64,000 nucleotides of DNA from Cetorhinus maximus (GCF_964194155.1 NC_135890.1:107136001-107200000); one strand, 5' to 3'; counted from the stretch's first letter, positions 1 to 64,000 are shown. The notes: generated from the sequence alone by a model not told the origin. Made by a program: numbers and translations.

Positions 1-600
1 CCCACTGTCACTTGATCTACTTGGCCCACCTCGTTCCCAAGAACGAGGTCTAGCAGTGCCTCCTTTCTTGTTGGACTGGACACTTACTGCTGTAGGAAAT
101 TCTCCTGAACACAACCTAGGAACGCTTGTCTCTCACTGTCCCTTTCACTACCACTATCCCAGTCTATATACGGGTAACTAAAGTCCCCCGTTATAACTAC
201 TCTACAATGTTTACACCTCTCTGTAATTTCCTTGCAGATTTGTTCCTCTATATCCTTCCCACTAGCTGGTGGTCTGTATATTACTCCAAGCAATGTAATT
301 GCACCTTTCTTATTCCTTAGCTCTAGCCAAATCGATTCCGTCCTTGATCCCTCTGACACATCCTCTTTCTCCAGTACTTCATAGTCTCCTTAACCAAAAA
401 TCCTCCTCCTTTGTTCTCTTTTCTATCTTTTCTGAACACCTTCTAATCAGGAATATTTAACACCCAGATCTGCCCTTTCTTAAGTCAGGTCTCCATTATC
501 GCCACAACATCATAATCCCACAAGACAAGCGTTGCTGTAAATCCCTAATTTTATTAATTATGTGCCATGCATTCACATATGTGCAGTGTAACCCTGATTT
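1..600 (-). mobile_element. CR1-type LINE, endonuclease region, decayed
   Basis: APE-like motifs WLELRNKKGAITLLGVIYRPP and GDFSYPYIDW. Confidence 0.85.
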
Positions 601-1466
601 AGTCTCCATTGCTTGCTCCTTTAATCTGACACCATCTATTAATTTAGTATTCTCTTTGTCTTTTCTTAATTTTATTAACATGGAGAAAGGGTAATCCTTT
701 CATTTGTAAATTTAAACAGTATTTGCCATAACTGGCACTGCTGTCCCCATACCTGTTGCAGCCTTTGTGTGGACAGGGCACCAAATCCTCCGTCTTCCCT
801 GTCAGAATACAACAATACTCTGGAAAATCCAAGAATCCCAGAAACACTCCAGAGTACCTTCAAGACACTTTACAAATGCAGAAGTTCCTCATGTTAGCTT
901 ACCTGCAACTTGGGTGTTTGGCCCTTCAAAGAATGCGAGTGCTAGACCCATCTTGTACGTCTGCACCTGATGTTTGCAGGCTGCTGTATGAATCTGTTGT
1001 CTGGGCCTGAGTGAACCAAATTCAATATCCCTGTTGTCACATCAGTAGTTGGACTGGGTGACAACAGGACAGCGTCGATTCACAGCTCACATGTAGGGGA
1101 AACCCTGGGTGTGCTCTTTTACGAATGGAACTCCGTACAGGAAGCAGCCGCAGCCAAATGGTATATGGCATGACTAAAATGAATTCTATGCTCTTTGTGT
1201 TTGATGTCTCTTGATTAGGCTCCTTGACATTGTCAGCAGCTGCCTCAATGCACTGAGGCTAAACTCAATCTGGTCCCTAATGAGTCCTCAGTGTATCAAT
1301 CAGAGTTATTTCCTTAAAACTCTTGGTTCGGTTAAATCAAAGGAAAATGGTTTCAGATTTTGATCCCTGATGTAACATACATAGATTCACGGACAATTCA
1401 CATTTACAAATTTTCACAAGGCAGAAACAACACAACAGCATTTAGATTTGTATCCAAAGAAACAAC

Positions 1467-1472
1467 TTTATT
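1467..1472 (-). terminator. Poly(A) signal of ISG15-A1 (equivalents 22841-22846, 44230-44235)
   Basis: Minus-strand AATAAA followed by a GT-rich element (tgctgttgtgttgtttctg, ~1440-1422). The region aligns with the 3' end of gene B. Confidence 0.6.
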
Positions 1473-2214
1473 TTCAAGTAACGTTGCACATTTCAATAAA
1501 ATGAACAGCCCGGGCACATAAATTCTGTTATTACAAAAGACTAAGCACACTGACTAAAGCACTTATATATTGGACATCGACATCTACTCACATAAAGTAA
1601 GGCTAAAGGAATACTTGCAGAACATTTAGCATCATTGTTCATTATATACAGTTATTTTGGGTAAATTTCAGTGTATCACAAAAAGCGTCCTATTTCTCCA
1701 TTTCTCATACCAACCACCTTGTGCCACACCCGAGTGGGAATAGAACCGAAAAGAATAATCCTCATGCTGTGAGCGCACGTGCATTAGGTTAACACTGACA
1801 CTCACACAACCTATTTCATAGAGGATATCCACAGACAGCAGGCTTGAGGGAGGTTGGGCCTAATCTGAATTTAGGTCCCAAAGGAAATTGCTTAGTAATC
1901 TTTGGCCTCATGTATAAAATAAAAATATGTTTCCATTCCTTCTTTGAAGGATACCCTCTGCTGCTTTGTCTGACACATTCCGTGTGGGCTATGAGTGCAG
2001 GCAGTGGCCTGCTTCGTAGACAGACACTAATATGTGCATGAACACCCCACTGTTATGAACAAGACAATCGAAGAGTGACAGTCAAAGTATCATTTACTTA
2101 CTAACCGCGATGCTTAAACTCATAGAAATTGCATCAGTGGGAAAAAAACCAACAGATTTTTATCGTAGTTTTTGTGTGATATCTAACACTCATTCCATAT
2201 TGGTGCTGTCTTAG

Positions 2215-2682
2215 TTAACCACCTCGTAGTCGTAGCATGAGGAAGATGGTGCTCTCAGACTGAATATTGTAGTCGGCGAGTGTCAGACCATCCTCCAGCT
2301 GTTTCCCTTCGCACACCAGACGCTGCTGATTGGCTGGGACACCCTCCTGCCGTTGTACCCGTGCTCTAAAATCCCGAACAGACTCAGAGGGAAGAACGTC
2401 ATATGTAGATGTTTTCCCCTTGTCATTCTTCAGGAATATCTGCATGCGCTCCTCGTTCTTGACAATCAGCATGACCTCATGACTGGGAGAGACATTGTAG
2501 TCAGACAGCCTCCTGCTGTCCTGCAGCTCTTCAGTGTTTCCATTTTGCACCACCAGGCGCTGTCGGAAATGGGACACCTTGGTTCTTTCATATATCATCT
2601 TCTTGAGAGCTGACACTTGGATGGAAGGGTCGATATCCAGTTCAATAACCTCACCGGTCATAAACTTCACCCGGAGTCTCAT
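2215..2682 (-). CDS. isg15: ISG15-like di-ubiquitin modifier, type A, copy 1
   Basis: 155 aa with two Ubl domains and no internal LRLRGG. The second domain has the ISG15-type [11 protein letters not shown] and ends LRLRGG-stop. Splice acceptor 12 nt upstream of ATG; ISREs upstream. Confidence 0.9.
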
Positions 2683-2944
2683 CTTGTCAAATTTCTGTTA
2701 AGAAATGAACAAGATATCAGTGACGGAGATGCTGTGTATTGTGTATCAGTCACATAATACTATTTTGAACATGCAATACATTGTCCAGACAATCATAGAA
2801 TCTAGGGAACTAATGCATTGTGTATTCTGCACCTACTGTACTCCCAACTCAGTCAAACTCCTTTAAGTATTTTATTCTCAATCGGAGCAATGCTGCACAC
2901 AAAGCCATGGACTGCTGCAAATACCGAGCAGCCAGCATCTATGG

Positions 2945-3080
2945 ACAGATCAGAGTCTTTTGGACTTGAAATATGAACTCTGTTTCTCTCTCCACAGACG
3001 CTGCTAGGTCTGTTGAGTTTTACCAGCATTTTCTGTTTTAATTCTGATTTTCTTCTGTTTGTACATTAGATTTCAGCATC
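2945..3080 (+). mobile_element. Single-arm fragment of the same Penelope-type repeat in the gene A intron
   Basis: gagtcttttggacttgaaa...ctctccacagacgctgctaggtctgttgagtttt resembles 17658-17740. Confidence 0.55.
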
Positions 3081-3084
3081 GCTG

Positions 3085-3195
3085 CCAAATCTAGCGTTTA
3101 TTCCGCAAAATTAATTGCCCTTGTGAAGGTGGTGGTGAGCTGCCTTCTTAAACCGCTGCAGTGTGTATGTGGTATAGGTCCCACAAGATGCCTCA
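3085..3195 (-). mobile_element. Short 3' end of the 15464-17106 LINE family in the gene A intron
   Basis: gaaggtggtggtgagctgccttctt is the reverse complement of ~17004-17028. Confidence 0.7.
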
Positions 3196-4260
3196 CTTGC
3201 TCAAATACAACTTTGATGTTCAGGGCAGTCACTCTCACTTCTAGAATTTATCTGTTTTGTCACCTTTGGTTCAAGTTGTAAAGAGGTGTGGAACTCAGTG
3301 GTGGTCCAAGGAGAACCCAAAATGAGATGAGTTAACATTTCAGGTGTAAATCCTTTGTGGGAATTGGAAGATATAAAAATGATCCCATTCCTCACATGTT
3401 TCGCCGGCTCACCCACGTTCCCATATCTGCAACATTTCGATGTCATGTCTGTTTTCCAGTTTGAATGAGGCAGAAACTGAGTTAGAAATATTTGTGCAAC
3501 TTATATTCTGAATTTATGTTGGAGTATTGAATCTATCCGGCATCTGCTGCGCACACAGTTGCAATACTCGGTTTTGGCCACAAGAGTGACTCAAGTAACG
3601 TGTAACATGAGCCGTGAATGAACGGGCTTCACTTGTGGGGAGCGCTGAACATTTAAACAGCCAACAGCAGAGTTCTCTAAACCAGGAACGATGTAACTGT
3701 TCTTCGTTGTGCAGAATTCCATCACAGCTTCGTTCGTTTTAGACACTGCACTCATGATGAAATTAGATTTGTCAGGCTGCCCAAAACCTACATTTGCCCT
3801 GGGAATACAGGAATGATTTATCTCACTCACATCTCTCTCACTGTTTAACTTTGGTTATATTCTCTTGCACTGTCGCCACATTGAGAGGATATTATTTTAT
3901 CTTAAATTGACTGTGAGATTCAATATAACCCATTCGAGCTCCCAACATAAATTCAACCTCAGACGTATCTTACTATATTGTTTTAAAAAAGCAATGACCC
4001 TTGTAATCTTAGTTAATGAATGTTTAATGTATTATTTCGAATATTTGAACAGCCCCCGTTAGAATATCTGAGAACGGGTGTCACATAAACATTAGATCTG
4101 TGTCTCCAACAGGATTGAGTTTTTCAATGATTTTCTTTCCATTCTCACCGGGTTTTAATAATATTAATTTATCAGAAATTGCATCTGAGATTCAGAACAA
4201 TGCAATTTCCACACCAGAAACAGAATATTGAAATTGCCCCGAAAGGCAGAATGAACTCAC

Positions 4261-4455
4261 AGTCCTTGCTGGAAGCACAGGTCCGGGAAAGTTCAGCTGC
4301 TGAATAATTTCTGATGCACTTTTTCTGCGCAGTTGGTCCTTTCTGTTTCCCTTCGCACCGACTCTCAGATCTGGACGGAGTATGTGAATCAAGCTCTTTG
4401 CTTCTGCTGCTCTGTATCTTGCTCTGTGCGTCTCTCCGTTAAACAACTCTGTCTG
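4261..4455 (-). other. Predicted non-coding exon 1 of ISG15-A1 (TSS approximate)
   Basis: Lies between a TATA-like AATAAAA (4486-4480) and the GTGAGT donor, contains no ATG, and is homologous to 11824-12020 of gene B. Confidence 0.6.
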
Positions 4456-4479
4456 CGCGCGTCTCCGGCTCCCTCCTCC

Positions 4480-4696
4480 TTTTATTCTCAGACCCGGTTT
4501 CCGAACGTCGCAGCCCCGCTGTCCTCTAATTGTCGGAAATCCCCTGTTCTGTTATGAAATAAATGTGATCGGAGCTGAAGTTTCGTTTTCCGAAAACTTC
4601 TCCCCCCAGTGTCTGACAAATGATCTCTCAGCCAGCAGCAGAGCATTCTTGCTGATAACAGGAAATGGCCTCTGATCTGTTTCGTTTTCCATTTCC
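4480..4696 (-). promoter_or_regulatory. ISG15-A1 promoter: TATA-like box, NF-kB site, two ISREs
   Basis: AATAAAA 4486-4480; GGGGATTTCC (minus) 4544-4535; AGTTTCGTTTTCC 4579-4591 matching AGTTTCNNTTTC; GTTTCGTTTTCCATTTCC 4679-4696 with three GAAA half-sites. Confidence 0.8.
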
Positions 4697-4870
4697 TTCA
4701 GTAACACAATGTAGAGCATCTTCAGCCGAAAGTGAGCCTGGAGGATTCGATGCTCTGTTGCCATCAGCCGTTTGAACAGCTGTTACTCTTAGAAATTTCA
4801 TCTGGACCCAATGTTTTCTTTGAAAAACGATCTTTATTTTTAGGAGTGTGAGGTGATGCTTTTTGGGAGG

Positions 4871-5640
4871 ACTAACACGGCAAGGGAATCCACAATGAAT
4901 GGTAGGACCTTAGACAGTACAGAGGATCAGAGGGACCTTGGTGTACATGTCCATAGATCCCAGAAGGCAGCAGCACAGTAGATAAGGTGGTTAAGAAGGC
5001 ATATGGGATGCTTGCCCTTGTTAGCCGAGGCATGGAACATAAGATTAGGGAGGTTATGTTGGAGTTGTATAAAACGCTAGTTAGACTACAGCTGGAGTAG
5101 TGTGTGCAGTTCTGGTCACCACCCATATGGGAAGGATGTGATTGCACTGGAGAGGGTGCAGAGGAGATTCACCAGGATGTTGCCTGGGCTGGAGCGTTTC
5201 AGCTATTAAGATAGACTGGATAGGCTAGGGTTGTTTTCCTTAGAGCAGACAAGACTGAGGGGGGACCTGATAGAGGTATCCAAAATTATGAGGGGCATAG
5301 ATAGGGTAGATAGGGAGAAACCTTTCCCCTTAGCAGAGGTATCAATAACCAGGGGGCATAGATTTAAGGTAAGGGGCAGGATGTTTAGAGGGGATCTGAG
5401 GGAAACTTTTTTCACCCAGAGGGTGGTTGGAATCTGGAACACACTGCCAGAGGGGGTGGTAGAGGTGGGAACCCTCAGAACATTTAAAAATTATTTAGAT
5501 GGGCACTTGAAATGCCACAGCATACAGGGCTACAGGCCAAGTGCTGGAAAATGCGATGGGAAAAGTTAGGTGCTTGATGGCCAGAACAGACACGATGGGC
5601 TGATGTGCCTGTTTCCGTTCTGTATAACTCTATGACTATC
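4871..5640 (+). mobile_element. 5'-truncated CR1 LINE 3' fragment (equivalents ~26243-27012, ~47641-48410)
   Basis: ORF2 C-terminal motifs FSLEQTRLRGDLIEV, TRGH and FFTQRVV; ctctatgact tail. A second short CR1/SINE 3' end lies at ~5870-5952. Confidence 0.85.
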
Positions 5641-6639
5641 AAGCACTCATTCTAACACAGACCCTATGATGAAAGGCACTTCCTGTGACACGTCAATATA
5701 AGGAAACAGGGAAGGGATTACAGTGATATGGCTGGTATAGCAGGGTGGCATCTCCACATTGGCACCAGTGATGTAAATTATAAAATTCTTGATTTTTTAC
5801 AGATTGAGGAGCAGGTACAAAAACTGAATTTGGCACACAGTGTCCTGTGTCCCGAGCAGTGATACATAGATAAGTGCTTGATGGCTGGCACAGACACGAT
5901 GGGCTGAAGGGCCTGTTTCTGTGCTGTATAACCACATGACGCTACGACTCTAAGACGGTACAGTATTTCTTGGGCGGCTGCCTGAGTTGAGTTGGTTTAT
6001 GTGAGATTTGGGGAGAGTGAGAGAAGGTGAAGGTGAGGTTGATGAGACCTGATTTGAATGGCAGAGCCAGTTCAAAGGACTAAGCCTCTACTCCTTCTGA
6101 TGTTCTTGTTTGATTTGACAGTGCAGCAATATTGTAAAAAGCTTGTCAAATGAAAGATTGCTTCTATTCTGAACTGATAGTGAGGGTGATTGCAGATTGA
6201 ACTACAGATCTAGAGCCAACCCAAAGGGGCAGTGGAGTCAGTTCTCCTCTTAAAAATTAAGTTAGACATTTTGGCTGAGATAATCATCTTAGTCTGATGT
6301 AGCATGTAACTGAGCTGGAGAGGCTCTCCATCAAAAGTGTGCCCTCAAAATGGCTGCTGTAATACCCTTTCCATGATCTTATTCTGATTTTCTTCCACCT
6401 TCTGGAAACAAATTAACTCTTGCAATTAAATGAAGCAAGGGAGTGGGGTCCCCATATTTCCCTTTCTTTGTGCCCAGTTACCATCCCTGAAAATCAGCAC
6501 CAGTTTACCATTGGCAGTTCTTAACCGATCAGAGATAGGGAAGGTGAAGAGGAGAAAGGTGCTGGAGGCCAATCAGGATGAAGGTGCCGAGAAGTAAGGT
6601 GGGTCCAAACACCTCATGAGCATCAAACAGGCGCGAGCA

Positions 6640-7250
6640 CTGATCCTTGCAGCACCCGGCTAGTTACATCCTGCCAACCAGAAAATGGCCCGTTTATTGC
6701 TACTCTCTGTTTTCTGACCATTAACCGATTCTGAGTTCATGTAATATATTAGCCCCAATCCCATGAGCCCCAATCTTTTGAAATAAACTCATTGGCGGTA
6801 GCTTATTGAATGCCTTTGGATAATCCAATTAAAATAAATCCACTGGTTCCTCCTCATCTACCCTGCAACTCAGAACCTCAACAAACCTCAACAAACTTTA
6901 ACATAATGTATAGAACACAGTTTCCCTTTCATACACCCATGCTGACTTTGACCAATCAAATTATGATTTTATAAGTGCCCTATTATCATGTCCCTAATAA
7001 CAAATTGTCGCACATTCCTTTCTGTTGATGTCAGGTTAACTGGCCTATACTCCTTCCTGATTCTTTCTCCCTTCGTTTCTTGAATAGTGGGTTTATGTTT
7101 GATCCTCCCAATCCATGAGGAGTGTTTGAGTATCTATTGAATCCTGCAAGACCCAGTGTGCCCACTATCTCTGTAGCCAGATCTTTTACCCCCTATGAAG
7201 GCGGCGATGGGTCCAGGGAATCTGTTGCCTTTTCGTCCCATGAATTTCTC
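6640..7250 (-). mobile_element. Old decayed CR1 RT-region fragment (equivalents ~28010-28620, ~49410-50020)
   Basis: The reverse complement resembles the CR1 RT region at 13300-13780 (e.g. caggccagttaacctgac, agagagtagcaataaacggg). Confidence 0.55.
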
Positions 7251-7374
7251 TCGTACTTTTTTCAGGATACAATTAGATTAATCCTGGGGATTTTAATTTT
7301 CATAGCGACTGGACGAAATAAATCTGCTGTAGTAATGTGGGGGATAAGGTTATAGAATGCAGTCAAAAATATTT

Positions 7375-8015
7375 TCTAGATCAGTGTCAGCAACCAGCCA
7401 CAAGGAGAGGTCCCTAAATCTGGCAGTAGATAGGAAACACAATCTTGGGGACTCCTGGGTGTGGCTCCAGAGAACAATATCCATCCCTCTGATTATACTG
7501 TCCTCTGCCATTACCACATTCCTTCCCCACAGCTTGCCCTCAACATTAATGGCCTCATGTATCATGGTTCTGTGGTCAGTTTTCTCATCCACCAGATTTT
7601 TTTATCATTCAGACAGGCAGCAGGAAGCCCATGCCTGTTAGATAAGGACAATGGCTGAGGTCCCCTGCACTGCACGATTGTGCTACGCTGTCTATGTTCC
7701 TATTTTCTTATCCACCTTGTGTCTCCTTACTAACCTGACCCGCAGCCACACCCTCCTGTCCCTGACCACTATTTAGACACTATGGGGCACTACGTAACTT
7801 AAGGAGTGTGACTGCCTCTTGGATGAAGTGTCCAGCTAACAGTCTTCCTCCCTAATGCCCCACAATGCCTGCATCTCGGACTGAAGCTCGACAAGTCGAA
7901 AGTTGAACTTCCTTGAGGTTCAGACACTTACTGTGGATGTGGTTGTCAGCAATTGCAATGCTGTCCACAAACTCCCACATGCTGCTGTTGTTGCAAAGCA
8001 CCTGCAATGCCATCA
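7375..8015 (-). mobile_element. CR1 ORF1 remnant: SGNH esterase-like and N-terminal Zn-finger-like (equivalents ~28745-29390, ~50145-50790)
   Basis: RNVVMAEDSIIRGMD...ESPRLCFLSTARFRDLS resembles the CR1 ORF1 GDS...CLPGARVRDV motif; MWE...KC upstream. Confidence 0.65.
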
Positions 8016-8789
8016 CCAGCTAACCCAGTTTTATTTATTTCATTAATTAACATTTATGCATTTAAACAACTTAGCTTATTTTGTTAACCTTTACGATATA
8101 GTTTTAAGTGATTGGTATATTGATATTTATCTGTAAATTACCCATTTCCTCCCCATGCTGTGATGTCACTTTGTGAATGCAACAAAGCCCTGAGTTTACC
8201 AGCACTTCTGGCCATTTATGAAGCAGTCATTGGCAGCATTCCCAAAAAAAACACAACTGCTTTGATTTGAAAGCCTCTTGTTGAATCCTTTGGCTGCATT
8301 GAGTTTCTGGAATGTCTCAGTCACCAGGGTGTCCCTGACATTATGCCACACCTCCAGCTTTGCATTGCAATGTGGGTGTGGTCTCTCATGATTCAGCTTT
8401 AGCACTGCATGAGAAACCACCGTCTCCACTAGCTGCACGAGATGTATGCTCACGAAACATTGATCTGTTAAAGCCTGTACCCTGATATCTTTATGTTTGG
8501 TTCCTTCACCAAGGAAGAGATTTCTGTCCCCTCCAGGGAGAGAAAACTGTTTCCCTGTCATTTCCTCCCAGTTCTGTCTGCTCCCTGGTGCACCGTGAAC
8601 CACCAACTGATAAGCTTCCACCTCAGTAATTCCCTTGTCTCAAGTAAGTGCATCGGGGCAGGTGTTTGAATAAGCAAGTTGTCTCTTGGAAGTTTCTAGT
8701 ATTCCAAACTGGAATAATTAGAAAAGCATATTTCCTTAATTATTAAATGTGACCAGTGTGAACTTAATTTTTGTATAAATTGCTGCCTT

Positions 8790-8900
8790 AGTCTCAGAAT
8801 GACAAAATCACACAGTGCAGAAGAGGCCCTTTGGCCCATTGAGTCTACACCGACATGGGAGAAATCCCCGACCTACCCACCTAATCCCATTTACCATAAT
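8790..8900 (-). mobile_element. Short CR1/SINE 3' end
   Basis: cagtgcagaagaggccctttggcccattgagtct is the reverse complement of the CR1 3' terminal motif seen at 5590-5630 and 14735-14750. Confidence 0.55.
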
Positions 8901-9415
8901 TAATACTCTTAGTTGATCGCTCAGTAAAGAATCAATACAGACATGATTAGCCAATAGTTCTGTGTTGTAAATCTTTATCGTTCTCACAAAAACCTGAGTA
9001 TTTGATATTTTTACCCAAAGCTGTGATGCTGTGAGAACCATTGAGATTGTCCAGTCTGAGCATGTGCAGACTGAATGTTTTGGTACAATTTGTTGATCGG
9101 CTCGCCGGCTGCCTCCGTTCCTGATCCCATCAGGGCCTAAAAATCCTGCCCAGATTCTCTAACATATCATGTGAAAGGCCACAGAAGATCAACCGGTACA
9201 ATATAATTAATATAATTAAACAGTGGTAAATATGGGCTGGTGATCTGGGCTGGTGTGATTCTTCAATATTGTCCATAGGTGTCTCATTCATAGCTGATTG
9301 TCCCATCAACACTTGTTAGGGTAAATGATCATAACCTAGGTTTAAATATGCATCCCGGATGGAATGCAGGGAAAGCCACAGACAATACAGACAGATAGAA
9401 ACACACATTCCAATT

Positions 9416-9421
9416 TTTATT
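9416..9421 (-). terminator. Poly(A) signal of ISG15-B1 (equivalents 30807-30812, 52185-52190)
   Basis: Minus-strand AATAAA followed by GT-rich tgtgtgtttctatctgtctgt. An AGTAAA at 9439-9434 sits at the position homologous to the A signal. Confidence 0.55.
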
Positions 9422-10284
9422 AAAATGGACAACTTTACTTTCAAATCACATTGGGTATTTTGGCAAATACAATGTGCAGGCCTGACATCCTCTGCTCTTA
9501 CACAACACTAAGCACCCAGATTAAAGCATTCCAATGTTAAACACATACAATTTTCCAAGAACACATTAAGGTTAAAGCAATTACTTGTAGATGACCTTAA
9601 GTCATTTTAAAATGAAGCTGGAAGACACTCATTGTTGATCCTTTGGAATTTTTGGCATGGCCCCTCCTATTCAGTGAAAGAGCTTTGGAATTGCCACATC
9701 AGCTAACTAATGGTCTCTGAGAGTGAGAAGGCGTATTCGTACTGAATGAGAGACAAGTTTGGAGCTGTGGATCAGGGACTGGATCATTATTGGCCTAAAT
9801 CTTCAGTAGAATTTTGAAGAGTAACAGAACATACTTTTGACCAATGATCGGCCAGGATTGATGTGAATCAAAGTATCACGAGTCAATGATCAGAATGGAA
9901 CACGTTGCATTAGCAGTCCCCCCGAATCCTTCTATATTATTAATTAAGTTGCTGACCCTTGTAAAAATTGTGTCCAATGTCTTGTACCTGCATCTTTCCT
10001 CAGGTGGGAATGCAGGAAGGTGACCTGCACCCAGGCCTCAGTTGGTATCATTTCCTAGCCAATCATTATCTGTTGAATAAACTTCCTGTTGTTATGGGAA
10101 CTGGGGCAGACAGGAATAAGATTCAAAAGTATCATGGACAAGTCAGTGACTGTGCAACCTGGGACTCTTACTAACTGCAGCTGAGAAAACAGGAGTATAT
10201 GAAAAAATTGATCAATTGAGGCACTATAAATAATTTACTTCTGTAATAGCTAGAGTTCATGGTATAAACCGCTGCAAGTGCAGG

Positions 10285-10752: not shown

Positions 10753-10764
10753 CTTGTCAAATTG

Positions 10765-54896: not shown

Positions 54897-54909
54897 GGTT
54901 TCATTTCCC
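54897..54909 (-). promoter_or_regulatory. ISRE-like site, ISG15-B3 promoter
   Basis: GGTTTCATTTCCC, same context as 12130. Confidence 0.65.
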
Positions 54910-55186
54910 AAAGCCTCCCCTCAGAGTCTGGGAAATAACCTGACAGGAGCAGCAGGAATGCACCTTGCTACAGGTAACAGGTACTGAATTCCGAGTTATC
55001 TCAGTTTCAGATTCCTATCTGGTGCCACAGTCATAAACAACAAGAACAGAATCAGCTGAGCGGTGAGTCAGAGGCCTCACTGCCTGTTTGAAGCTGTGGG
55101 CAGGGCTTGAACAATACAATGTATAAAGATACAGTGCATCAGACCAGTCAGTTTAATTATCTAATGAAAAGAAATTGGCCTCAAAT

Positions 55187-57552
55187 TGCAGGGGTCCTGC
55201 TCCACGAGTACAAGTCAAATTTGTGGAATGTCTACAAGATGGCTTTTTGGAGCAGCTTGTGGTGGAGCCCACGAGAGGACAGGCAATTCTAGATTTAGTG
55301 ATGTGAAATGAGGCAGATTTGATAAGGGTGCTTAAGGTGAAGGAGCCCTTAGGAGGAAGTGACAATAATATGATAGAATTTACCCTGCAATTTGAGAGGA
55401 AAAAGCTGGAATCAGATGTAACGGTATTACAGTTGAATAAAGGCAACTACAGAGGCATGAGGGAGGAGCTGGCCAGAATTATCTGGGAGATGAGCCTAGC
55501 AGGAATGACAGTGAAACAGCAATGGCAGGAGTTTCTGGGAGACACATCAAAAATTCATCCCTTGGAAGAAGAAGTATACTAAAAGGAGCACGAAGCAACC
55601 ATGGCTGACAAGGGAAGTCAGGGACAGCATAAAAGCGAAAGAGAAAGCATACAATGCGGCAAAGAGCAGTGGGAAACCAGGGGATTGGGAAGCCTACAAA
55701 GGCCAACAGAGGACAACTAAAAAATAAATAAGGAGGGAGAAGATTAAATATGAGTGTAAACTGGCCAGTAATATAAAAGAAGATTGCAAGAGTTTTTTTT
55801 AGATATATAAAGGGTAAGAGAGAGGCAAAAGTGGACATTGGGCCACTGGAAAATGATGCTGGAGAAGTAGTAGTGGGGAACAAAGAAATGGCGGAGGAAC
55901 TGAATAGGTACTTTGCGTCAGTCTTCGCGGTGGAAGACACGAGTAACATCCCAAACGTTCAAGAGGGTCGGGGGACAGAGGTGAGTATGGTGGCCATTAC
56001 CAAGGAGAAGCTGCTAGGAAAACTGAAAGGTCTGAAGGTGGATAAATCACCTGGGCCAGATGGATTACACCCCAGAGTTCTGAAGGAGATAGCTGAAGAG
56101 ATAGTGGAGGCGTTAGTGGTGATCTTTCAGGAATCACTTGAGTCAGGGAGGGTCCCAGAGGACTGGAAAATCGCTAATGTAACCACCCTGTTTAAGAAGG
56201 GAGTGAGGCAAAAGACGGGAAATTACAGGCCGATTAGCCTGACCTCGGTCATTGGTAAGATTTTAGAGTCCATTATTAAGGATGAGATTTCAGAATACTT
56301 GGAAGTGCATGGTAAAATAGGGCAAAGTCAGCATGGTTTCATGAAGGGGATGTCATGCCTGACAAATCTGTTCCAGAAGGCCTTTGACAAGGTGCCGCAC
56401 AGGAGGCTGCTCAGTAAGATAAGAGGCCATGGTGTTAGAGGCAAGGTACTAGCATGGATAGAAGATTGGCTGTCTAGCAGGAGGCAGAGAGTGGTGATAA
56501 GGGGATTCTTCTCAGGATGGCGGCCGGTGACCAGTGGAGTTCCGCAGGGGTCAGTGTTGGGCCCACAACTTTTCACTTTATACTTTAATGATCTTGGTGA
56601 AGGAACTGAGGGCATCCTGGCTAAGTTTGCAGATGATACAAAGATAGGTGGAGGGACAGGTAGTATTGAGGAGGTGGGGAGGCTGCAGAAGGATTTTGAC
56701 AGGTTAGGAGAATGGGCAAGGAAGTGGCAGATGGAATAAAACGTGGGCAAGTGTGAGGTCATGCACTTTGGTAGGAAGAATAGAAGTATAGACTATTTTC
56801 TAATTGGGGAGAGAATTCAGAATTCTGGAGTGCAAAGGGATTTGGGAGTCCTAGTCCAGGATTCTCTTAAGATTAACTTGCAGGTTGAGTAGGTAGTTAG
56901 GAAGGCAAATGCAATGTTGTCATTTATTTCGAGTGGACTAGAATATAAAAGCAGGGATGTGCTGCTGGGGCTTCATAAGGCTCTGCTCAGACCACATTTC
57001 GAATATTGTGAGCAATTTTGGGCCCCGAATCTCAGGAAGGATGTTCTGGCCCTGGAGAGGGTCCAGAGGAAGTTCAGGAGCACGATCCCAGGAATGAAAG
57101 GCTTAACATATGAGGAACGTTTGAGGGCTCTGGGTCTATACTCAATGGAGTTTGGAAGGATGAGGGGGGATCTGATTGAAACTTACAAAATACTGGAAGG
57201 CCTGGATACAGTGGACATGGGGAAGATGTTTCCATTAGTCGGAGAGACTAGGACCCGAGGGCACAGCCTCAGAGTAAAGGGAGGACCTTTTGGAAGAGAG
57301 ATGAGGAGAAACTTCTTTAGCCAGAGAGTGGTGACTCTATGGAATTCATTGCTACAGAAGGCTGTGGAGGCCAGGTCAGTGAGTGTACTTAAAACTGAGA
57401 GAGATAGGTTCTTGATTGGTAAGGGGATCAAAGGTTATGGATAGTAGGCAGGAGAATGGGGTTGAGAATCTTATCAGCCATGATTGAATGGTGCAGCAGA
57501 CTCGATGGGCCGAATGGCCTAATTTCTGCTCCTATGTCTTATAGTCTCATGG
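55187..57552 (+). mobile_element. CR1 LINE ORF2, unit 3 copy
   Basis: Same element with an extra stop at 56737-56739. Confidence 0.92.
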
Positions 57553-58230
57553 TCTTAGGTAGCGGAAAACCCCTTTCCCTTTCCAATCACAAGGCCAAGG
57601 GGTTAATGTCACTTCGATGTCATGGTGGATGCTCAGAAACTGTAAGAGTGCTTTAGTGGACAGATCCATCCTAATCTTTGCTTTGTTTATAACATCTGAA
57701 ATCCCTCTGTGACTATTCTCACATGATCCTTTTTGCTGCTACTGTGGACCTGTGTTTCTATGCCTCCCGTGTTCCTTTGCTGCCCCAGGTAAGAAGTACA
57801 AGGTTTGTGACATGTAAACCATCTCCACCAATTAATACATTTTGATTGTCTTTTTCTAAAAGAAAACTTAATACTTTGTCAAATCCCACGTGTGCACACC
57901 CCGGTTGAATTACAATTCATCCTCAGACCCTTCCTCTAGCATCGACATGGTGCATCCTGTGTGACTTCAGCCAAGTTAGAGACAGGCTGTCCAGCTCAGT
58001 GTTGGAAATTTTTGTCCAGCTTTGCCTTAACACATCCTCCAGCTGAACACCACTCCAATACTCGTGTTTTGATGGAGGTTCCAACATGTATCTTACCCTC
58101 TCCTCCTCCAACAATGGAAACAGCAGCAGAGCCATATCACAGCCGTAATACAGCCATGCCACAGCCATATCACGGCAATATCGGAGCCATGTCACAGCCG
58201 TACCACTGTCATATCACAGCCATATCACAG

Positions 58231-59873
58231 TGATACCTCCTCCGGATGTTCCCAGCATCACTGATACCAGTCTTCAGCCAATTGAATTCACTCCACGTGA
58301 TATCGAGAAATGGCTGAAGGCACTGGACACTGCAAAGAGTACGGGCTCTGATAATATCCTGACAATAGTAATGAAGACTTATGCTCTAGGACTTGCTGTG
58401 CCCCTATCCATGCTGTTCCAGCACAGCTACAACAGTGGCATGCACCCGGCAATGTGGAAAATTGCCCAGGTATGTCCTGTAAACAAAATACAGGTCAAAA
58501 CCAACTGGGCATATGACCGCCCCATCAGTCTACTCTTGATCATCAGCAAAGTGATGGAATGGGTCATCAACAGTGCTATCATGTGGCACTTGATTAGCAA
58601 TAACCTGCTCACTGACACCCAGTTTGTGTTTGGCCAGAGTCAGTCAGCTCCTGACATCATTACAGCCTTGGGTCAAACATGGACAAAAGGATTGAAGAGA
58701 AGAGATGAGGTGAGACTCACTGCCCTTGACATCAGTGAAGCATTTGATTGAGTGTGGCATCAAGGACCCTTAGCAAAACTGGAGTCAATGGGAATCAGGG
58801 GGAAAGCCCTCTGCTGGTTAGAATCATACCTAGCACAAAGGAAGATGGTTGTGGTTATTGGAGGTCAATCATCTCAATTCCAGTACATCACTGCAGGAGT
58901 TTCTCAGGGTAGTTCCTAGGCCCAACCATCTTCAGCTGCTTTATCAATGACCTTCCTTCCATCATAAGGTCAGGCGTGGGGATGTTCGCTGACGATTTCA
59001 CAATGTTCAACACCACTCGTGATTCCTCAGATACAGAAGCAGTCCATGTCCAAATGCAGCAAGACCTGGACTATATTCAGGGTTGGACTGACAAGTGCAA
59101 GTAACATTCACACCACACAAATGCCAGGAAATGACCATCTCTAACAAGAGAAAAAGTAACCATCGCCCCTTGACATTCAATGGCATTATCATCGCTGAAT
59201 CTCCAACTATCAATATCCTGGGGGTTACCATTGACCAGAAACTGAACTGGATTAGTCATATCAATACTGTGGCTATAAGAGCAGGTCAGGGGCTAGGAAT
59301 TTTGTGGAGAGTAACTCGCTTCCTGACTCCGCAAAGCCTGTCCACCATCTACAAGGCACAAACCGGGAGTGTGATGGACTACTAATCACATGCCTGGATG
59401 AGTGCAGCTCCAACAACACTCAAGAAGCTTTACGCCATCCAGGACAAAGCAGCCAGCTTGATTGGCACCCCATCCACAAATATTCACTCCCTCCACCACT
59501 GACGCACAGTGGCAGCAGTGTGTACCACATAGAAGATGCACTGCAGGAACTCACCAAGCCTCCTTACACAACACCTTCCAAACTCACGACCAATACCATC
59601 TAGCAGCAGACACATGAGAACAGCACCACCTGAAAGTTCCCCTCCAAGCCACTCACTATCCAGACTTGGTCATATATCGCTGTTCCTTCACTATTGGTGG
59701 CTCAAAATCCTGGAACTCCTTCCCTAACAGCACTGTGGGTGTAACTACACCACATGGATTTCAGCAGTTCAAGAAGGCAGCTCACCACCACCTTCTCTAG
59801 GACAATTAGGGATGGGCAATAAATGCTGGACTATCCAGCAACACCCATATCCCATAAGTGATAAAAAGAAAAC
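58231..59873 (+). mobile_element. CR1/L2-group LINE, unit 3 copy
   Basis: Direct repeats at 58215-58230 and 59874-59889. Confidence 0.85.
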
Positions 59874-62800
59874 CACAGCCATATCACAGCCACACCACAG
59901 CCGTATCACAGGCAGACCACATTGCCAGCACCGACAGCCATGAAGGCAAATTGGAGTTATAGTTCTTTAAAGTACACTGTTGGGCTCCTCACTGTAACAT
60001 AATCTTTAGCTCCTCTTGTTTACAACTACGATCACCATCAGGTCCACATGGGATATGTTTGGTCCAGAAGATGGGAGTCTCCTTCGCTTGGTCCGTTGTC
60101 CGTCTAGGGATGGTGGGGTCTGATACACACTTTGCCTAAGGGACTACCCTTTTTGCTGACTCTGCTGGGACATCAACCCCCTAAGGAATATATAGTTTCC
60201 TGGATGGAATTTACCTTGCCATTTGGACCGACATAACTGGATATAATTATCAGGTGGGCTCATCAGCATTATTCTTACTAAGATAAAAGCAAAATACTGC
60301 GCATGCTGGAACCTGAAAGAAAACCAAAAACTGCTGGAGAAACTCAGCAGGTCAGACAGCATCTGTGGAGAGAAAAACCCAACGTTTCGAGTCCAAATGA
60401 CTCTTCATCCTCAGTTCTGAAGAAGAGTCATATGGATTCGAAACATTGGCCCTTTCTCTCCACTGATGCTGTCAGACCTGTTGAGGTTTTCCAGCAGTTT
60501 TGGTTTTTGTATCATTATTCTAACGTTGTCTCCTGGGTTGTTTACTCACACATTTTTCTATTCACCACTCTCCCCAATTTGTCTCAAAGTGACAAATGAG
60601 GAATGTCTAAGGGCAGAGTAGTTTCAGACTCTGACATAAATTTTTTCCATTGAAACTCTCTGATTAAACATATTGCATTTCCTTCCTTCATTCATCATAC
60701 TTATTGCCTTCGTTCCAACTGTTTGGATAGCCACCTTTAATCGCTCCATGGTTTTTCCACACGTGTACCCTCCCTGACTCCCCAGGAATCACTTGGGGTT
60801 TGTTAAATGCGATATCGTGGTCACTAAAGTTGGACCAATCAAAGAAATCGCTTTTCTAACCTGGATTGCCAAAATACACTGGTTGAACTCTTCCAGAATA
60901 TGGATGGCTATTAACAGGTGGCTGATCTTTAATGTTTGGGCCCATATCTTCGACTGACCGTCAATCCAGATTTTTCTGAAAAATAAAACAAAATACACCA
61001 ACCTCTGCGGGCGAAACTTTTCTTTTGGACACAGGTGAGTAGTTAAGGGTTAACAAAATTGCCTTTCTCTTCTGTGGCCTCTATTAACCCTATCAATTCT
61101 GCATAGGAGTGAATCAGCTGAACCCTCTCCCTTTGAGCGCTGCCTTTGTAACGCATACCTCTGCTGGCATTTAGCCTTCCTGGGCAGGGCTTGCTCCCAG
61201 ATTCAACTCCTCCTCCAGCATCCCCTCGGAGGTGGTACTTCTGGATCTCATTATTGGGTCTGTGGGCCTGATGCTGGCTGCTTTTCCTTTCTGCAAATGT
61301 TCCCCCTTAAATAGTTTCACCTGATTAATATGAAACCATGTATCCCACTTTGTAAGTTGGACAGCATACACCATTGGGCTGGCTTTATCCACAATGCTGT
61401 ATGGCCCCTTGTATACAGATTCAAACAGACCAACTCTTGCATCATTTCATGCCTTAACCTGCTGACCTATATCCCACTCTTGTGGTTTGGCTTTTTCTAG
61501 GAGCAATTTATTAACACAATGCGCCCTCCCTATGTTCCTTGCAGCCTCATCGTGGAGGCCTTGCAAGGCCACAGAAGATCAACTGGTTCAATATAATTAA
61601 TATAATTAAACTGTGGAAATTATGGGCCGGTGATCTGGGCTGGTGTGATTCTTCAATATTGTCCATAGGTGTCTCATTCATAGCTGATTGTCCCATCACC
61701 ACTTGTTAGGGTAAATGATCATAACCTGACTTTAAATATGGATCCCGGATGTAATGCAAGGAAAGCCACGGACAATGCAGACAGATAGAAACACACATTC
61801 CAATTTAAAATAAAGCTTTACTTTCAAATCACATCGAATATTTTGGCAGAAACAACGTGCAGGCCTGCTATCCTTTGCTCTTGTAAAACACTAAGCACCC
61901 AGAATAAAGCATTCCAATGTTAAACACTTACAATTCTCCAAGAACACTTTAAGGCTAAAAGGAATTACCTGTAAAAGTTATTTTAAAATGAAGAAGGCAG
62001 GCAATCATTGTTGATCTTTATATGGGGAATATTTGGCATGGCCCCTCCTATACAGTGAAACATTTTTGGAATTGCCCCATCAGCCATCTTATGGTCCCTG
62101 TGAGTCAGGAGGTGAATTAGTACCGAATGAGAGATGAGCTTGGAGCTGTGTACTCATTAGGATCTCAACCAATATTAGTTTCACTCTTCAGAAGAATCTT
62201 TAAGGTTAACAGTACATGCTTTTGACCAATGATCAACCAGGGTTGATGTAAAATGGTTCTGTACATCCTGGCACCGGCAACAAGAGAATCCCAGTGACCC
62301 AGTGCACTGGGACTTTTGAAGATGATGATAATTTCCTGCTTCTGCCCCTTCTCATCACCCCCATCCTACTATCTGTCACGAAATGCAAACTGCAGATGGT
62401 GTAACCATGGACCTCTTGCTTCCCACCCTTGCCCCTTCTTCACCTAACCTTCCACTTCTGATTTTGTGATTTCTGATACCCTAGAACTGCCCACTTACAC
62501 AGCACAGCAGCCCAAGGAGCAAGAGAGAGAGCTGCAGCCACAGCACTGATGAAGAGGTCCTATCCACTTAACCTGGTGCTCAGATACTGCCGCTGTGCGC
62601 AACTTTTAGAGGCCACTACAGATTTAGATCAGCATGTGGTGAGTCACCAGGCATGAGTGGCCTGCAAACAGGCCAGGGGCAAAGGATGGTTTGTTTGTCA
62701 GCTTACTGGAGGGTGAGGTCACAGACAAGTGTTACTGCAGTCGACTTCGGTGAGGATCTCGATGGACAGCATACAGGAGAATACTAAGGGGCATGCACAC

Positions 62801-62970
62801 TGAGGTACTGGGTACATTGGCTGGCCTGGAGCAGGAACACAGCCTTCCTATCACTGTCAGGGAACATGGAGGGGTCTGACACCAAGTTGGCAGATTTTAT
62901 GGTGCAAAGCTTGCCCTCTCCGCAGCCACTACTCCATCTCTATCTCACGTTGCAGACCCAGGGTCACTGG

Positions 62971-64000
62971 CACAGAACCACAGAATTATTACGGTGTAGA
63001 AGGAGGCCATTTGGCCCATCGTGTCTGCACCGGCTCTCTGAGCATTTTAACTTAGTGCCAATCTCCTGCCTTTTCCCTGTAACCCTGCACATTGTTTCTA
63101 TTTAAATAATCATCCAATGCCCTCTTGAATGCCTTAATTGAACCTGCCTCCACCACTCTTCCAGGCAGTGCATTCACTGTATGAAGAAGTTTATTCTCAC
63201 CTCACATTTGCTTCTTTTGCAAAACACCTTAAATCTGTGCCCTCTGGTTCTCGATCCGTTAAGAACAGGGAACCGTCTCTCCCCATCTACTCTGTCCAGA
63301 CCCCTCATGATTTTGAAAATTTCTATCAAATCTCCTCTCAGCCTTCTCCTCTCCAAGGAAAACAGTCCCAACTTCTCCATTCTTTCCTCATAACTGAAGT
63401 GTCTCATCCCTGGAACCATTCCCGGTGCCTTAACAATTTTAAGTACCGACAGCTTATCCAATACCTCCTCCTTATCAATTTTAAACCCTTCTAGTGACTG
63501 AGTTTCCTCCTCTGTCACCATGGCCTGGGCAGCATCTGCCTCGTAGGTAAAGACAGATGCAACGTATTCATTTAACACCTCAGCCATGCCTCTTGCCTCT
63601 ATATGTAAATGCCCTTTTTGATCCCTAATTGGCCCTACTCCTCCTTTTACCACCCTTTTACTATTGGTGTGCTTATAGAATACTTTGGCATTTCCTTTTA
63701 GTTAGCTGCCAGTCTTTGTTCATTATCCCTCACTGCTTCTCATATTTGCTTTTACACATCCCTTCTGAACCTTCTGTATTCAGCTTGGTTCTCAGTTGTA
63801 TTTGCTGCCCGATACCTGTTGTAAGCACACTTTTTCTTCTTTAACCTAATTTCTATTTCCTTTGTCATCCAGGGAGCTCTGGATTTGTTTGTCCTACCCT
63901 TCCCTTTTGAGGGAACATGCCTTGACTGTGCCCAAACCTTCTCCTTTTTGAAGGTAGCCCATTGTTCAGCTCCTGTTTTTCCCACCAACCTTTGGTTCCA
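62971..64000 (-). mobile_element. CR1-type LINE, RT-deleted, cut by window end
   Basis: Nearly identical to 41593-42620. Confidence 0.85.

What the first reader, a model, noticed from the sequence alone, without database searches (positions are those of the whole stretch)
1..64000. Recently amplified tandem array of paired ISG15 genes: at least 6 intact copies in two classes
Seen: three ~21.4-kb units, each with one type A and one type B ISG15-like gene. All six ORFs and their ISRE promoters are intact, while every retroelement around them is disabled. Established: human and mouse have a single ISG15, and some teleosts have a few. Inference: a two-stage expansion (old A/B duplication, then recent amplification of the pair) producing a multi-copy antiviral Ubl repertoire, probably in a cartilaginous fish. 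The window begins and ends in the same element, so the array is likely longer; the next A gene is predicted near 66.4 kb. I cannot tell from here whether this array has been described.
Basis: partly seen in the sequence, partly recalled or inferred. Interest (0 to 1): 0.85.

Follow-up and report, generated by a model that had tools for sequence, protein, structure and literature searches.

The report
Tandem ISG15-like gene array in shark
This shark DNA holds at least six intact copies of an antiviral ubiquitin-like gene (ISG15-like) in two types whose front halves differ while their attachment ends have been kept nearly identical, which gives a natural test of what the front half does.

Summary
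Confirmed: three head-to-tail units of about 21.4 kb, each with one type A and one type B gene. All six encode intact 155-aa di-ubiquitin-like proteins ending in LRLRGG. The units differ by 1.6-2.2% with a CpG-biased spectrum, so an assembly artefact is unlikely. The closest proteins are from basking shark (98%) and white shark, annotated only as 'polyubiquitin-like' or 'uncharacterized'. Profile, fold and gene structure favour ISG15; a tree with true ISG15s, synteny and inducibility could not be tested.

(1) Only A has canonical ISREs; B has an EICE-type element, and A2 has lost its kB-like site.
(2) Intact ORFs alone are weak evidence (P about 0.13 under neutrality); a nonsynonymous deficit is better (p 0.01-0.02).
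(3) The history is a mosaic, not two clean steps.
(4) Six copies has a precedent in salmon, and other sharks also look multi-copy.

New here: A and B differ at 22 of 72 N-terminal residues but only 2-6 of 83 C-terminal ones, with C-domain silent sites far closer than the flanks. This points to gene conversion holding the conjugation domain uniform. A new variant of a known kind.

The parts
1..21374 (.). Repeat unit 1 (A1, B1, orphan flank, dead LINE pieces); the boundary is arbitrary, set by the window start
21375..42764 (.). Repeat unit 2 (A2, B2)
42765..64000 (.). Repeat unit 3 (A3, B3), 142 bp short at the window end
2215..2682 (-). Type A CDS, copy A1, 155 aa, ends LRLRGG-stop
2695..4260 (-). 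Predicted 5'-UTR intron of A1 (1,566 nt, GT..AG; acceptor 12 nt before the ATG). Same in A2 (24067-25632) and A3 (45458-47021)
   Evidence: sequence, motif positions; predicted, no RNA data
4470..4700 (-). A1 promoter: overlapping tandem GAAAnnGAAA at 4695/4689, proximal one at 4590, kB-like site at 4544, TATA-like at 4486. A2: 26067/26061/25962, kB-like site mutated. A3: 47465/47459/47351, 9-bp insertion upstream of the proximal element
   Evidence: ISRE consensus from PMC4821649 passages
10285..10752 (-). Type B CDS, copy B1, 155 aa, ends LRLRGG-stop
10765..11823 (-). Predicted 5'-UTR intron of B1 (about 1,060 nt; two candidate GT donors at 11823 and 11828). B2 32156-33214, B3 53533-54590
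   Evidence: predicted
12040..12250 (-). B1 promoter, homologous to A's (62% over 779 columns). The proximal element fits GGAAnnGAAA (EICE type, 12141), the distal element is a one-mismatch ISRE, the kB-like site is deleted; TATA-like at 12055. Same element in B2 (33531) and B3 (54907)
   Evidence: EICE consensus from PMC4821649 passages
23587..24054 (-). Type A CDS, copy A2 (R108W relative to A1)
31676..32143 (-). Type B CDS, copy B2 (protein identical to B1; 2 silent differences)
44978..45445 (-). Type A CDS, copy A3; 4 of its 7 differences from A1/A2 match the B state
53053..53520 (-). Type B CDS, copy B3 (2 aa differences from B1)
9172..9867 (-). 3' flank of B1 (also 30563-31258, 51944-52636); its counterpart downstream of A is 22665-23010 at 62%
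18794..19484 (-). Orphan B-type 3' flank (83% to B's flank) with no coding remnant beside it, probably left by a lost third gene (also 40183-40873, 61562-62252)
20250..22300 (-). Internally deleted CR1-type LINE spanning the unit junction (ends approximate); two versions 6-7% apart (this one and about 41640-43700). The window starts and ends inside further copies
   Evidence: 'CR1-type' is a recalled label, Pfam shows only endonuclease and RT domains
12390..14750 (+). Best-preserved LINE fragment (RT domain, broken ORF2; ends approximate), just upstream of the B promoter
4844..5640 (+). 3' LINE fragment just upstream of the A promoter; further RT fragments at 6629-7049 (-) and about 15382-16330 (+)

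Best explanation
A real tandem array of ISG15 genes in a lamniform shark, made of an old A+B pair that has been multiplied and is kept in turnover by unequal crossing-over and gene conversion.

How a gene works (inferred from anatomy and from known ISG15 biology): IRF-family factors bind the promoter after infection or interferon; a non-coding exon 1 is spliced to a single coding exon; the 155-aa product needs no processing because LRLRGG is followed directly by the stop; it is activated and conjugated to host and viral lysines through its C-terminal domain, or acts free.

How the array works: copy number adds dosage, and the two classes split the job. Conversion plus purifying selection keeps the C-terminal domain, which must fit shared E1/E2/protease partners, nearly the same in A and B. 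The N-terminal domains diverged early and have since been conserved within each class. The promoters differ as well (A: ISRE plus kB-like; B: EICE type), so A is probably the broadly inducible class and B may be weaker or leukocyte-biased.

Shown: array, ORFs, motifs, divergence patterns. Inferred: orthology to ISG15, expression, conjugation, conversion as the cause, and any functional split.
For: Real paralogues: three distinct units at 1.6-2.2%, transitions about equal to transversions, few indels. Transitions at majority-CpG sites 42 of 620 versus 138 of 8,684 at other C/G sites, 4.3-fold. Divergence is about 6 times the 0.27% heterozygosity reported for the nearest named species (PMC13044535 passage).

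ISG15-like: a 21-sequence shark profile matches mammalian ISG15 as one collinear stretch (positions 3-155, up to 109 bits), chicken OASL at 105 bits; FAT10 is not in the 60 rows shown of 321. Per domain, the N-domain scores ISG15 35.5-37.6 bits versus ubiquitin 34.2. The 16 best of 994 aligned chains are all ISG15 (Z 16.7-19.5, rmsd 2.2-4.3), against linear di-Ub 16.5 (rmsd 7.6), OASL 16.2 and FAT10 15.1 at 27% identity. TM 0.65-0.84 to ISG15 versus 0.44-0.54 to linear di-Ub. Atlas: ISG15 cluster 0.95, ubiquitin D 0.93. No internal GG; the L8/H68/V70 patch is replaced. Non-coding exon 1 with a 5'-UTR intron and ISREs, as in teleost ISG15 (PMC9680060 passages). GAAAnnGAAA: 9 in unit 1 versus 1.45 +/- 1.2 in 200 shuffles, 4 of the 9 within 350 bp at the A promoter and exon 1.

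Selection: within-class changes 8 nonsynonymous / 10 synonymous against a neutral fraction of 0.70-0.72, p 0.013-0.021.

Conversion: A/B flanks differ at 30% on both sides (206 of 692; 94 of 317), C-domain silent sites at 4 of about 62 (p 2e-5 and 5e-5), N-domain 8 of about 48. A/B amino-acid differences N 22 of 72, C 2-6 of 83, against about 18 expected from the between-species N:C ratio, p 1e-4 or less for 2-5 differences. Window B is 1 residue from Cetorhinus LOC144687821 in the N-domain but 7 in the C-domain, where it is 2 from window A3.

Mosaic: site patterns cluster along the unit (p 0.0002); junction LINE 6-7% versus core 1.5%.
Against: No teleost or tetrapod ISG15 sequence was returned or 43 (one search gives no names), so no clade test was possible. 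By raw sequence score and Foldseek E-value the best hits are ubiquitin chains; the C-domain is 45-46 of 76 identical to ubiquitin. The margins over OASL and ubiquitin D are small, bat ISG15 ranks below linear di-Ub and OASL, and the model's domain orientation is uncertain (pTM 0.59) and may reflect ISG15 structures seen in training. No flanking genes lie in the window, so synteny is untested; no expression data.

The N-versus-C difference at silent sites alone is not significant (p 0.12). In the C-domain tree window B still groups weakly with white-shark B (83/93) and the rest is unresolved. A fixed A/B silent difference sits 2 nt from the shared Cys124 codon change, which a single clean tract does not explain. 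N-domain dN/dS between classes is about 0.5-0.8, so there is no sign of positive selection. White-shark B-type proteins are truncated (151 aa without RGG; 124 aa). In salmon only 2 of 6 copies responded to virus (PMC12234341 passages). The ISRE count is partly inflated by purine-rich LINE sequence (5 of 9 hits lie outside the promoter region).
Confidence: 0.7

Rival explanations
1. The array is real and ISG15, but there is no division of labour: only some A copies are inducible, B and the extra copies are passengers of segmental duplication, and copy number drifts.
For: B lacks a canonical ISRE and the kB-like site, and A2's kB-like site is mutated. Intactness of six ORFs has P about 0.13 under neutrality. 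White-shark B types are truncated. An orphan flank suggests a gene was already lost here. Salmon: 2 of 6 copies respond (PMC12234341 passages).
Against: Nonsynonymous deficit within classes (p 0.013-0.021); B alone has 2 N / 4 S, too few to test. The B N-domain is identical in all three copies and 1-4 residues from basking and white shark B, while 21-25 from A types. B's promoter element, TATA-like box and splice sites are retained in all three copies.
Confidence: 0.2
2. These are not ISG15 orthologues but a chondrichthyan di-ubiquitin-like modifier derived independently from a polyubiquitin (or related to OASL-Ubl or FAT10) that came under IRF control convergently.
For: The C-domain is about 60% identical to ubiquitin and keeps the K48 equivalent. 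All homologues found by the region searches are chondrichthyan or unnamed (12 of 13 candidates passed, 17 of 17). Sources name them polyubiquitin-like or uncharacterized. OASL and ubiquitin D score close behind ISG15.
Against: Collinear full-length match and best fold match to ISG15. Same two-exon layout with a 5'-UTR intron and ISREs as teleost ISG15. Zebrafish and human ISG15 are also each closer to di-ubiquitin than to one another yet syntenic (PMC5381560 passage). LRLRGG end; the word-based search is known to miss distant relatives.
Confidence: 0.1
3. The near-identity of the A and B C-terminal domains is due to purifying selection alone, without gene conversion.
For: The C-domain carries the conjugation surface. 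N-versus-C silent divergence is not significantly different (p 0.12). The C-domain tree is mostly unresolved. Cetorhinus and Carcharodon A/B pairs are also closer in C (8 and 10 differences).
Against: C-domain silent sites are about 5-fold less diverged than both flanks (p 5e-5 or less). Between shark species the C-domain diverges freely (18% versus 26% for N). Window B carries the A-type residues K85 and C124 where the three other B-type proteins have R85 and Y/H124. The high-identity block ends at the stop codon.
Confidence: 0.12
4. Assembly artefact: haplotypes or erroneous reads assembled in tandem.
For: High identity between units; no reads available here.
Against: Three distinct versions at 1.6-2.2%, with stretches at 6-7%; CpG-biased transitions; nonsynonymous deficit; divergence about 6 times the heterozygosity of the nearest named species; multiple paralogues in other sharks.
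Confidence: 0.04

Closest known systems
Teleost ISG15 (Asian seabass ISG15A/B; Atlantic salmon 2+4 copies; cod 3; croaker and crucian carp 2)
   Same: Two Ubl domains, LRLRGG end, non-coding exon 1 with a 5'-UTR intron, ISREs, linked duplicates (seabass pair 2.9 kb apart; salmon 2 on chr20 and 4 on chr24). From passages of PMC9680060, PMC12234341 and PMC13030082.
   Different: Here a 21-kb two-gene unit is itself repeated; introns are 1.1-1.6 kb (seabass 100-115 bp); the domain pattern is the reverse of seabass, where the first Ubl is identical and the second only 62%; the C-domain is 60% identical to ubiquitin (seabass 44%); six intact mature-ended copies in one array, whereas salmon's six are split between two homeologous regions.
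Mammalian ISG15 (human, mouse; PDB 7s6p, 9nn9, 5chw)
   Same: Collinear 155-position match, 34-37% identity, best structural match.
   Different: Single-copy in human and mouse (recalled; 1-to-1 zebrafish-human in 10.1101/693333 passage); ATG in exon 1 and hinge Cys78 in human (PMC9680060 passages); the window's proteins have no hinge Cys and no C-terminal extension.
Chondrichthyan 'polyubiquitin-like' database proteins (Cetorhinus LOC144687816 and LOC144687821; Carcharodon, Scyliorhinus, Mustelus, Heterodontus, Rhincodon, Hemiscyllium, Heptranchias, Pristiophorus, Mobula)
   Same: The same family, 72-98% identical to A1 for the two-domain forms; A and B classes both present in basking and white shark.
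   Different: None equals any of the six window proteins; none is named ISG15; the A/B split is not seen outside lamniforms in this sample of cluster representatives; paralogues in Heterodontus and in one unnamed three-unit record group by lineage.
FAT10/UBD and the OASL tandem Ubl domain
   Same: Interferon-related di-Ubl architecture (recalled); both match the fold.
   Different: Lower scores: FAT10 Z 15.1 at 27% identity; OASL Z 16.2, TM 0.59. OASL's Ubls are fused to a synthetase, and there is no such exon here. FAT10 does not end in LRLRGG (recalled).
Polyubiquitin genes (UBB/UBC)
   Same: Highest raw sequence scores; tandem Ubl units; concerted evolution is known for these genes (recalled).
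   Different: The two domains here are unlike each other (23-26 and 45-46 of 76 identical to ubiquitin), there is no internal GG to cleave, the hydrophobic patch is replaced, and the promoter is of IRF type.

Membership tests
ISG15 | Two tandem Ubl domains joined by a short hinge without an internal diglycine | tested here: met
ISG15 | C-terminal LRLRGG | tested here: met
   6 of 6 copies, followed directly by the stop
ISG15 | Closer over full length to ISG15 than to FAT10, OASL-Ubl or linear di-ubiquitin | tested here: met
   met by collinear profile match and fold, margins modest; summed sequence score favours ubiquitin chains
ISG15 | Fish-type gene structure: non-coding exon 1, 5'-UTR intron, CDS in one exon | tested here: met
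   predicted donors and acceptors in all six; reference PMC9680060 passages; no transcript evidence
ISG15 | ISRE (GAAAnnGAAA) in the promoter, class A | tested here: met
   three matches in each of the 3 A promoters
ISG15 | ISRE (GAAAnnGAAA) in the promoter, class B | tested here: inconclusive
   no exact match in any of the 3 B promoters; an EICE-type element and a one-mismatch distal element lie at the homologous positions
ISG15 | Monophyly with teleost and tetrapod ISG15 | not testable with these tools
   no named ISG15 sequence was returned; one search has no names; the structure searches give no usable sequences
ISG15 | Conserved synteny of the ISG15 locus | not testable with these tools
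   the window holds no flanking gene; no vertebrate genome collection is offered
ISG15 | Induction by interferon or virus; conjugation via UBA7 and removal by USP18 | not testable with these tools
   needs RNA data and biochemistry
Polyubiquitin | Near-identical 76-aa units each ending in GG | tested here: not met
   30-34% and about 60% identity to ubiquitin; no internal GG
OASL | Ubl pair fused to an oligoadenylate synthetase | tested here: not met
   own promoter and start; no OAS domain among the 90 frames scanned with Pfam (mostly unit 1)
FAT10/UBD | Best similarity to FAT10 rather than ISG15 | tested here: not met
   FAT10 27% identity, Z 15.1, versus ISG15 34-37%, Z up to 19.5; Atlas 0.93 versus 0.95

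The most novel reading that the evidence does not exclude
Lamniform sharks run a modular ISG15 repertoire: one conjugation domain, standardised by gene conversion, carries two separately conserved N-terminal domains under two regulatory logics (a general ISRE/NF-kB class A and an Ets-IRF, leukocyte-type class B), amplified as a pair in a copy-number-variable array of eight or more genes. The two classes would then differ in E3 or substrate choice, receptor binding or resistance to viral antagonists. The 60%-ubiquitin-like C-domain would also be an unusually conservative record of ISG15's origin from di-ubiquitin.
Probability: 0.25. Interest if true: 0.7.

Novelty: new variant of a known kind. 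Interest (0 to 1): 0.45.

Why it matters
[quoted passage not shown] This window, with the multi-member shark clusters, suggests that sharks are a systematic exception hidden under the label 'polyubiquitin-like'. The A/B pair is a natural domain-swap experiment (almost the same C-domain, 30% different N-domain), so it can be used directly to ask what the N-terminal Ubl of ISG15 contributes. The one-base shift from an ISRE to an EICE-type element offers an equally simple test of regulatory subfunctionalisation. It also places ISG15 sequence in the earliest-branching lineage with interferons. Limits: tandem immune-gene arrays and gene conversion are ordinary mechanisms, salmon already has six copies, and nothing functional is shown.

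Tried and rejected
1. Clade test with true ISG15, FAT10 and OASL: three homologue searches (full length, best 120 of 1,546 shown; residues 1-80, 12 of 13 candidates; residues 72-118, 17 of 17) returned only chondrichthyan proteins, unnamed records and polyubiquitins. The exhaustive search (best 150 of 30,479) was swamped by multi-unit ubiquitin proteins and has no names.
2. A short-query PDB search meant to isolate an ISG15 signature (residues 78-112) listed only ubiquitin forms in the 60 rows shown of 288; uninformative.
3. Copy numbers in other sharks: cluster members could not be listed, so member counts (7 Carcharodon-led, 6 and 6 Scyliorhinus-led, 3, 3, 2) may mix species and are only a lead.
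4. Pseudogene remnant beside the orphan flank: none by tblastn down to E=50.
5. Non-coding RNA: 0 Rfam hits in 1-23000; only two short 11-bp tandem arrays.
6. Other genes in the unit: Pfam on 80 further frames gave only LINE domains and two sub-threshold hits (S_4TM, IBR_1), treated as chance.
7. Positive selection between A and B: dN/dS below 1; rejected for now.
8. CpG enrichment counted on 'any copy' (5.9-fold) is inflated by ascertainment; replaced by the majority-state count (4.3-fold).
9. Exactly three units made by recombination between two flanking LINE copies: it fits the 6-7% zone coinciding with the junction LINE, but not the low divergence of U1/U2 over 1-4000 (29 of 3,997, p 9e-5) and of U2/U3 over 19000-21230 (11 of 2,230, p 5e-6) against the 1.5% core. 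Not excluded, judged less likely than a longer array.
10. Absolute dating: the epaulette-shark rate (7e-10 per generation; PMC10587355 passages) would give about 1e7 generations for 0.75% per lineage. It is not transferable to a long-lived lamniform, so only the relative age is reported.
11. Literature: ten searches, seven of them with ISG15 as a term; no listing showed a paper on shark ISG15 copies. Most subscription journals are outside the library, figures are not held (including the ISG15 tree of PMC5381560), and the salmon paper's supplements were not read.

Full report
OBSERVATION. The window is three head-to-tail units of about 21.4 kb. Aligned, they differ at 1.58%, 1.98% and 2.24% of sites, with 11-18 indels per pair. 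Each unit carries two minus-strand 155-aa ORFs, A (2215-2682, 23587-24054, 44978-45445) and B (10285-10752, 31676-32143, 53053-53520). They have two ubiquitin-family domains (A1 and B1 scanned) and all end in LRLRGG at the stop. No seventh copy or fragment lies in the window. The five RT-bearing LINE pieces found in unit 1 are broken, and no frame in the window exceeds 386 aa.

REAL OR ARTEFACT. Three distinct versions exist. Transitions roughly equal transversions, and transitions at CpG sites are 4.3-fold enriched (42 of 620 versus 138 of 8,684). The divergence is about six times the 0.27% heterozygosity of the nearest named species (PMC13044535, passages). This is what paralogues look like, not alleles or read errors. 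Reads were not available.

ORGANISM. The best hits are Cetorhinus maximus LOC144687816 (98% to A1) and Carcharodon carcharias (94%); the B N-domain is 99% identical to Cetorhinus LOC144687821. The window is therefore from a lamniform shark, with the basking shark the closest sampled. Neither Cetorhinus protein equals any window protein (3 or more and 8 or more differences). All 14 named chondrichthyan rows among the 120 shown are called 'polyubiquitin-like' or 'uncharacterized'; none is called ISG15.

IS IT ISG15? Raw scores favour ubiquitin chains, because the C-domain is 45-46 of 76 identical to ubiquitin. That is expected: zebrafish and human ISG15 are each closer to di-ubiquitin than to one another (PMC5381560, passage). 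Tests that respect the two-domain layout favour ISG15. A profile of 21 shark sequences matches mammalian ISG15 in one stretch over positions 3-155 at up to 109 bits; OASL gives 105, and FAT10 is not among the 60 rows shown. An AlphaFold model (pLDDT 88, pTM 0.59) has TM 0.65-0.84 to ISG15 and 0.44-0.54 to linear di-ubiquitin. The 16 best of 994 aligned chains are ISG15, with FAT10 at Z 15.1 and 27% identity. The Atlas ranks an ISG15 cluster second (0.95), behind a chordate 'polyubiquitin-like' cluster and ahead of ubiquitin D (0.93). There is no internal GG, and ubiquitin's L8/H68/V70 patch is replaced while R42, K48, R72 and R74 are kept. The gene layout (promoter, non-coding exon, 1.1-1.6-kb intron, acceptor 12 nt before the ATG) is that of teleost ISG15 (PMC9680060, passages). 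The margins over OASL and FAT10 are modest, and clade, synteny and induction could not be tested. I put orthology at about 0.9.

PROMOTERS. With the consensus definitions of PMC4821649 (passages), each A promoter has three GAAAnnGAAA matches, and A1 and A3 a kB-like site (recalled consensus; mutated in A2). B promoters have no exact ISRE. At the position homologous to A's proximal ISRE, B has a one-base-shorter element that fits the Ets-IRF composite GGAAnnGAAA; its distal element is one mismatch from an ISRE and the kB-like site is deleted. Unit 1 has 9 ISRE matches against 1.45 expected, but 5 lie outside the promoter region. That A is the broadly inducible class and B weaker or leukocyte-biased is an inference from motifs only.

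SELECTION. Six intact ORFs are not surprising at this divergence: about 2 disabling hits are expected, P(0)=0.13, and the LINEs were evidently broken before the amplification. Better evidence is the 8 nonsynonymous to 10 synonymous changes within classes against a neutral fraction of 0.70-0.72 (p 0.013-0.021).

TWO DOMAINS, TWO HISTORIES. A and B differ at 22 of 72 N-terminal residues but 2-6 of 83 C-terminal ones. Between eight shark species the domains diverge at 26% and 18%, so about 18 C-domain differences would be expected (p 1e-4 or less for 2-5). The promoter block and the 3' flank both put the A/B split at 30% mismatch, whereas C-domain silent sites differ at 4 of about 62 (p 2e-5, 5e-5) and N-domain silent sites at 8 of about 48 (p 0.07-0.08). 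The high-identity block ends at the stop codon. In the N-domain tree A and B are supported clades, each with basking and white shark members; in the C-domain tree the split is largely lost. Window B has A-type K85 and C124 where the three other B-type proteins have R and Y/H, and 4 of A3's 7 differences from A1/A2 match B. Gene conversion of the C-domain is the best reading. Against it: N versus C silent divergence alone is not significant (p 0.12), window B still groups weakly with white-shark B in the C tree (83/93), and one fixed silent difference lies next to the C124 codon. Between classes the N-domain has dN/dS about 0.5-0.8, and within a class it is nearly invariant across species (1-5 residues). 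This suggests early divergence followed by constraint, not an ongoing arms race.

ARRAY HISTORY. Differences are not spread evenly (adjacent-pattern test p 0.0002). The 15-kb core is a three-way star at 1.5-1.6%. The junction LINE exists in two versions 6-7% apart. U1 and U2 are closer than the core over 1-4000, and U2 and U3 over 19000-21230 (p 9e-5, 5e-6). The junctions thus read P, P, Q, Q, typical of an array turning over by unequal exchange and most easily explained with further units on both sides. A three-unit array bounded by two LINE copies is less likely but not excluded. An orphan B-type 3' flank (83%) in each unit points to a lost third gene. 'Recent' is relative: several times older than allelic diversity, and in a slowly mutating lineage (PMC10587355, passages) probably millions of years.

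OTHER SHARKS. Two paralogues in Heterodontus group together, and an unnamed 461-aa record consists of three head-to-tail units closest to a Pristiophorus protein. Clusters led by Carcharodon and Scyliorhinus proteins have 6-7 members, though members could not be listed. White-shark B-type proteins are truncated. Multi-copy status thus looks common in sharks, not special to this window.

WHAT IS KNOWN. Linked ISG15 duplicates are described in teleosts: two in seabass 2.9 kb apart, three in cod (PMC9680060, passages), and 2+4 in salmon, of which two respond to virus (PMC12234341, passages). A review states that ISG15 has not been extensively duplicated (PMC13030082, passages). ISG15 is described as having emerged in gnathostomes (PMC5381560, passage). 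Passages of 10.1101/693333 and PMC6002735 do not treat shark ISG15. Searches showed no paper on shark ISG15 copies or on ISG15 gene conversion; for most hits I saw only the listing. Subscription journals, figures and the salmon supplements were not seen; one supplement of PMC5381560 was searched.

VERDICT. A real, probably undescribed lamniform ISG15 array. The decoupled domains and diverged promoters make it more than a copy count and give a clean test of N-domain function. New variant of a known kind; interest 0.45.

Noticed in passing
window 18794-19484 (also 40183-40873, 61562-62252): Orphan copy of B's 3' flank (83%) with no coding remnant; white shark has two B-type proteins, so a second B gene may have been lost here.
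   Followed up: partly
window 20250-22300 versus about 41640-43700: The junction LINE occurs in two versions 6-7% apart, and the high-divergence zone matches the element's extent; it may mark recombination between two LINE copies or ectopic conversion.
   Followed up: partly
window 45562-45762 (A3 intron): A 200-bp patch with 15-16 differences from A1/A2 (8%), suggesting a donor more diverged than any copy in the window.
   Followed up: no
window 4844-5640 and 12390-14750: Both gene types have a LINE fragment inserted about 150 bp upstream of the distal promoter element, on the opposite strand; the two are only about 60% alike, so independent insertions.
   Followed up: no
P0003 (Mobula hypostoma): A three-domain form (one N-type and two C-type Ubl domains, 237 aa, altered C-terminal motif); Mobula birostris has a normal two-domain form.
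   Followed up: no
P0121: Unnamed 461-aa record made of three head-to-tail ISG15-like units closest to a Pristiophorus protein: either a gene model joining three tandem genes or a true poly-ISG15 precursor.
   Followed up: partly
P0053 and P0270 (Carcharodon), P0271 (Mustelus): Truncated family members (151 aa without RGG, 124 aa, 122 aa): decaying copies or annotation errors.
   Followed up: no
window CDS, residue 127: All six proteins keep the lysine equivalent to ubiquitin K48; Cetorhinus LOC144687816 has Q there. A1 and A2 replace the R54 equivalent by L.
   Followed up: no
window 3' of the six stops: A weak AGTAAA signal lies 115-117 nt (A) or 46 nt (B) after the stop; the first AATAAA is at about 740 (A) or 864 (B) nt, with ATTTA motifs between. 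The 3' ends are undetermined.
   Followed up: partly
window 42799-42807: A GAS-like palindrome is present only in the Q version of the junction LINE; another lies at 9553-9561 in B1's 3' flank only. Probably chance.
   Followed up: no
window 15363-15463 and 17105-17154: Short arrays of a related 11-bp unit on either side of the RT fragment at 15382-16330.
   Followed up: no
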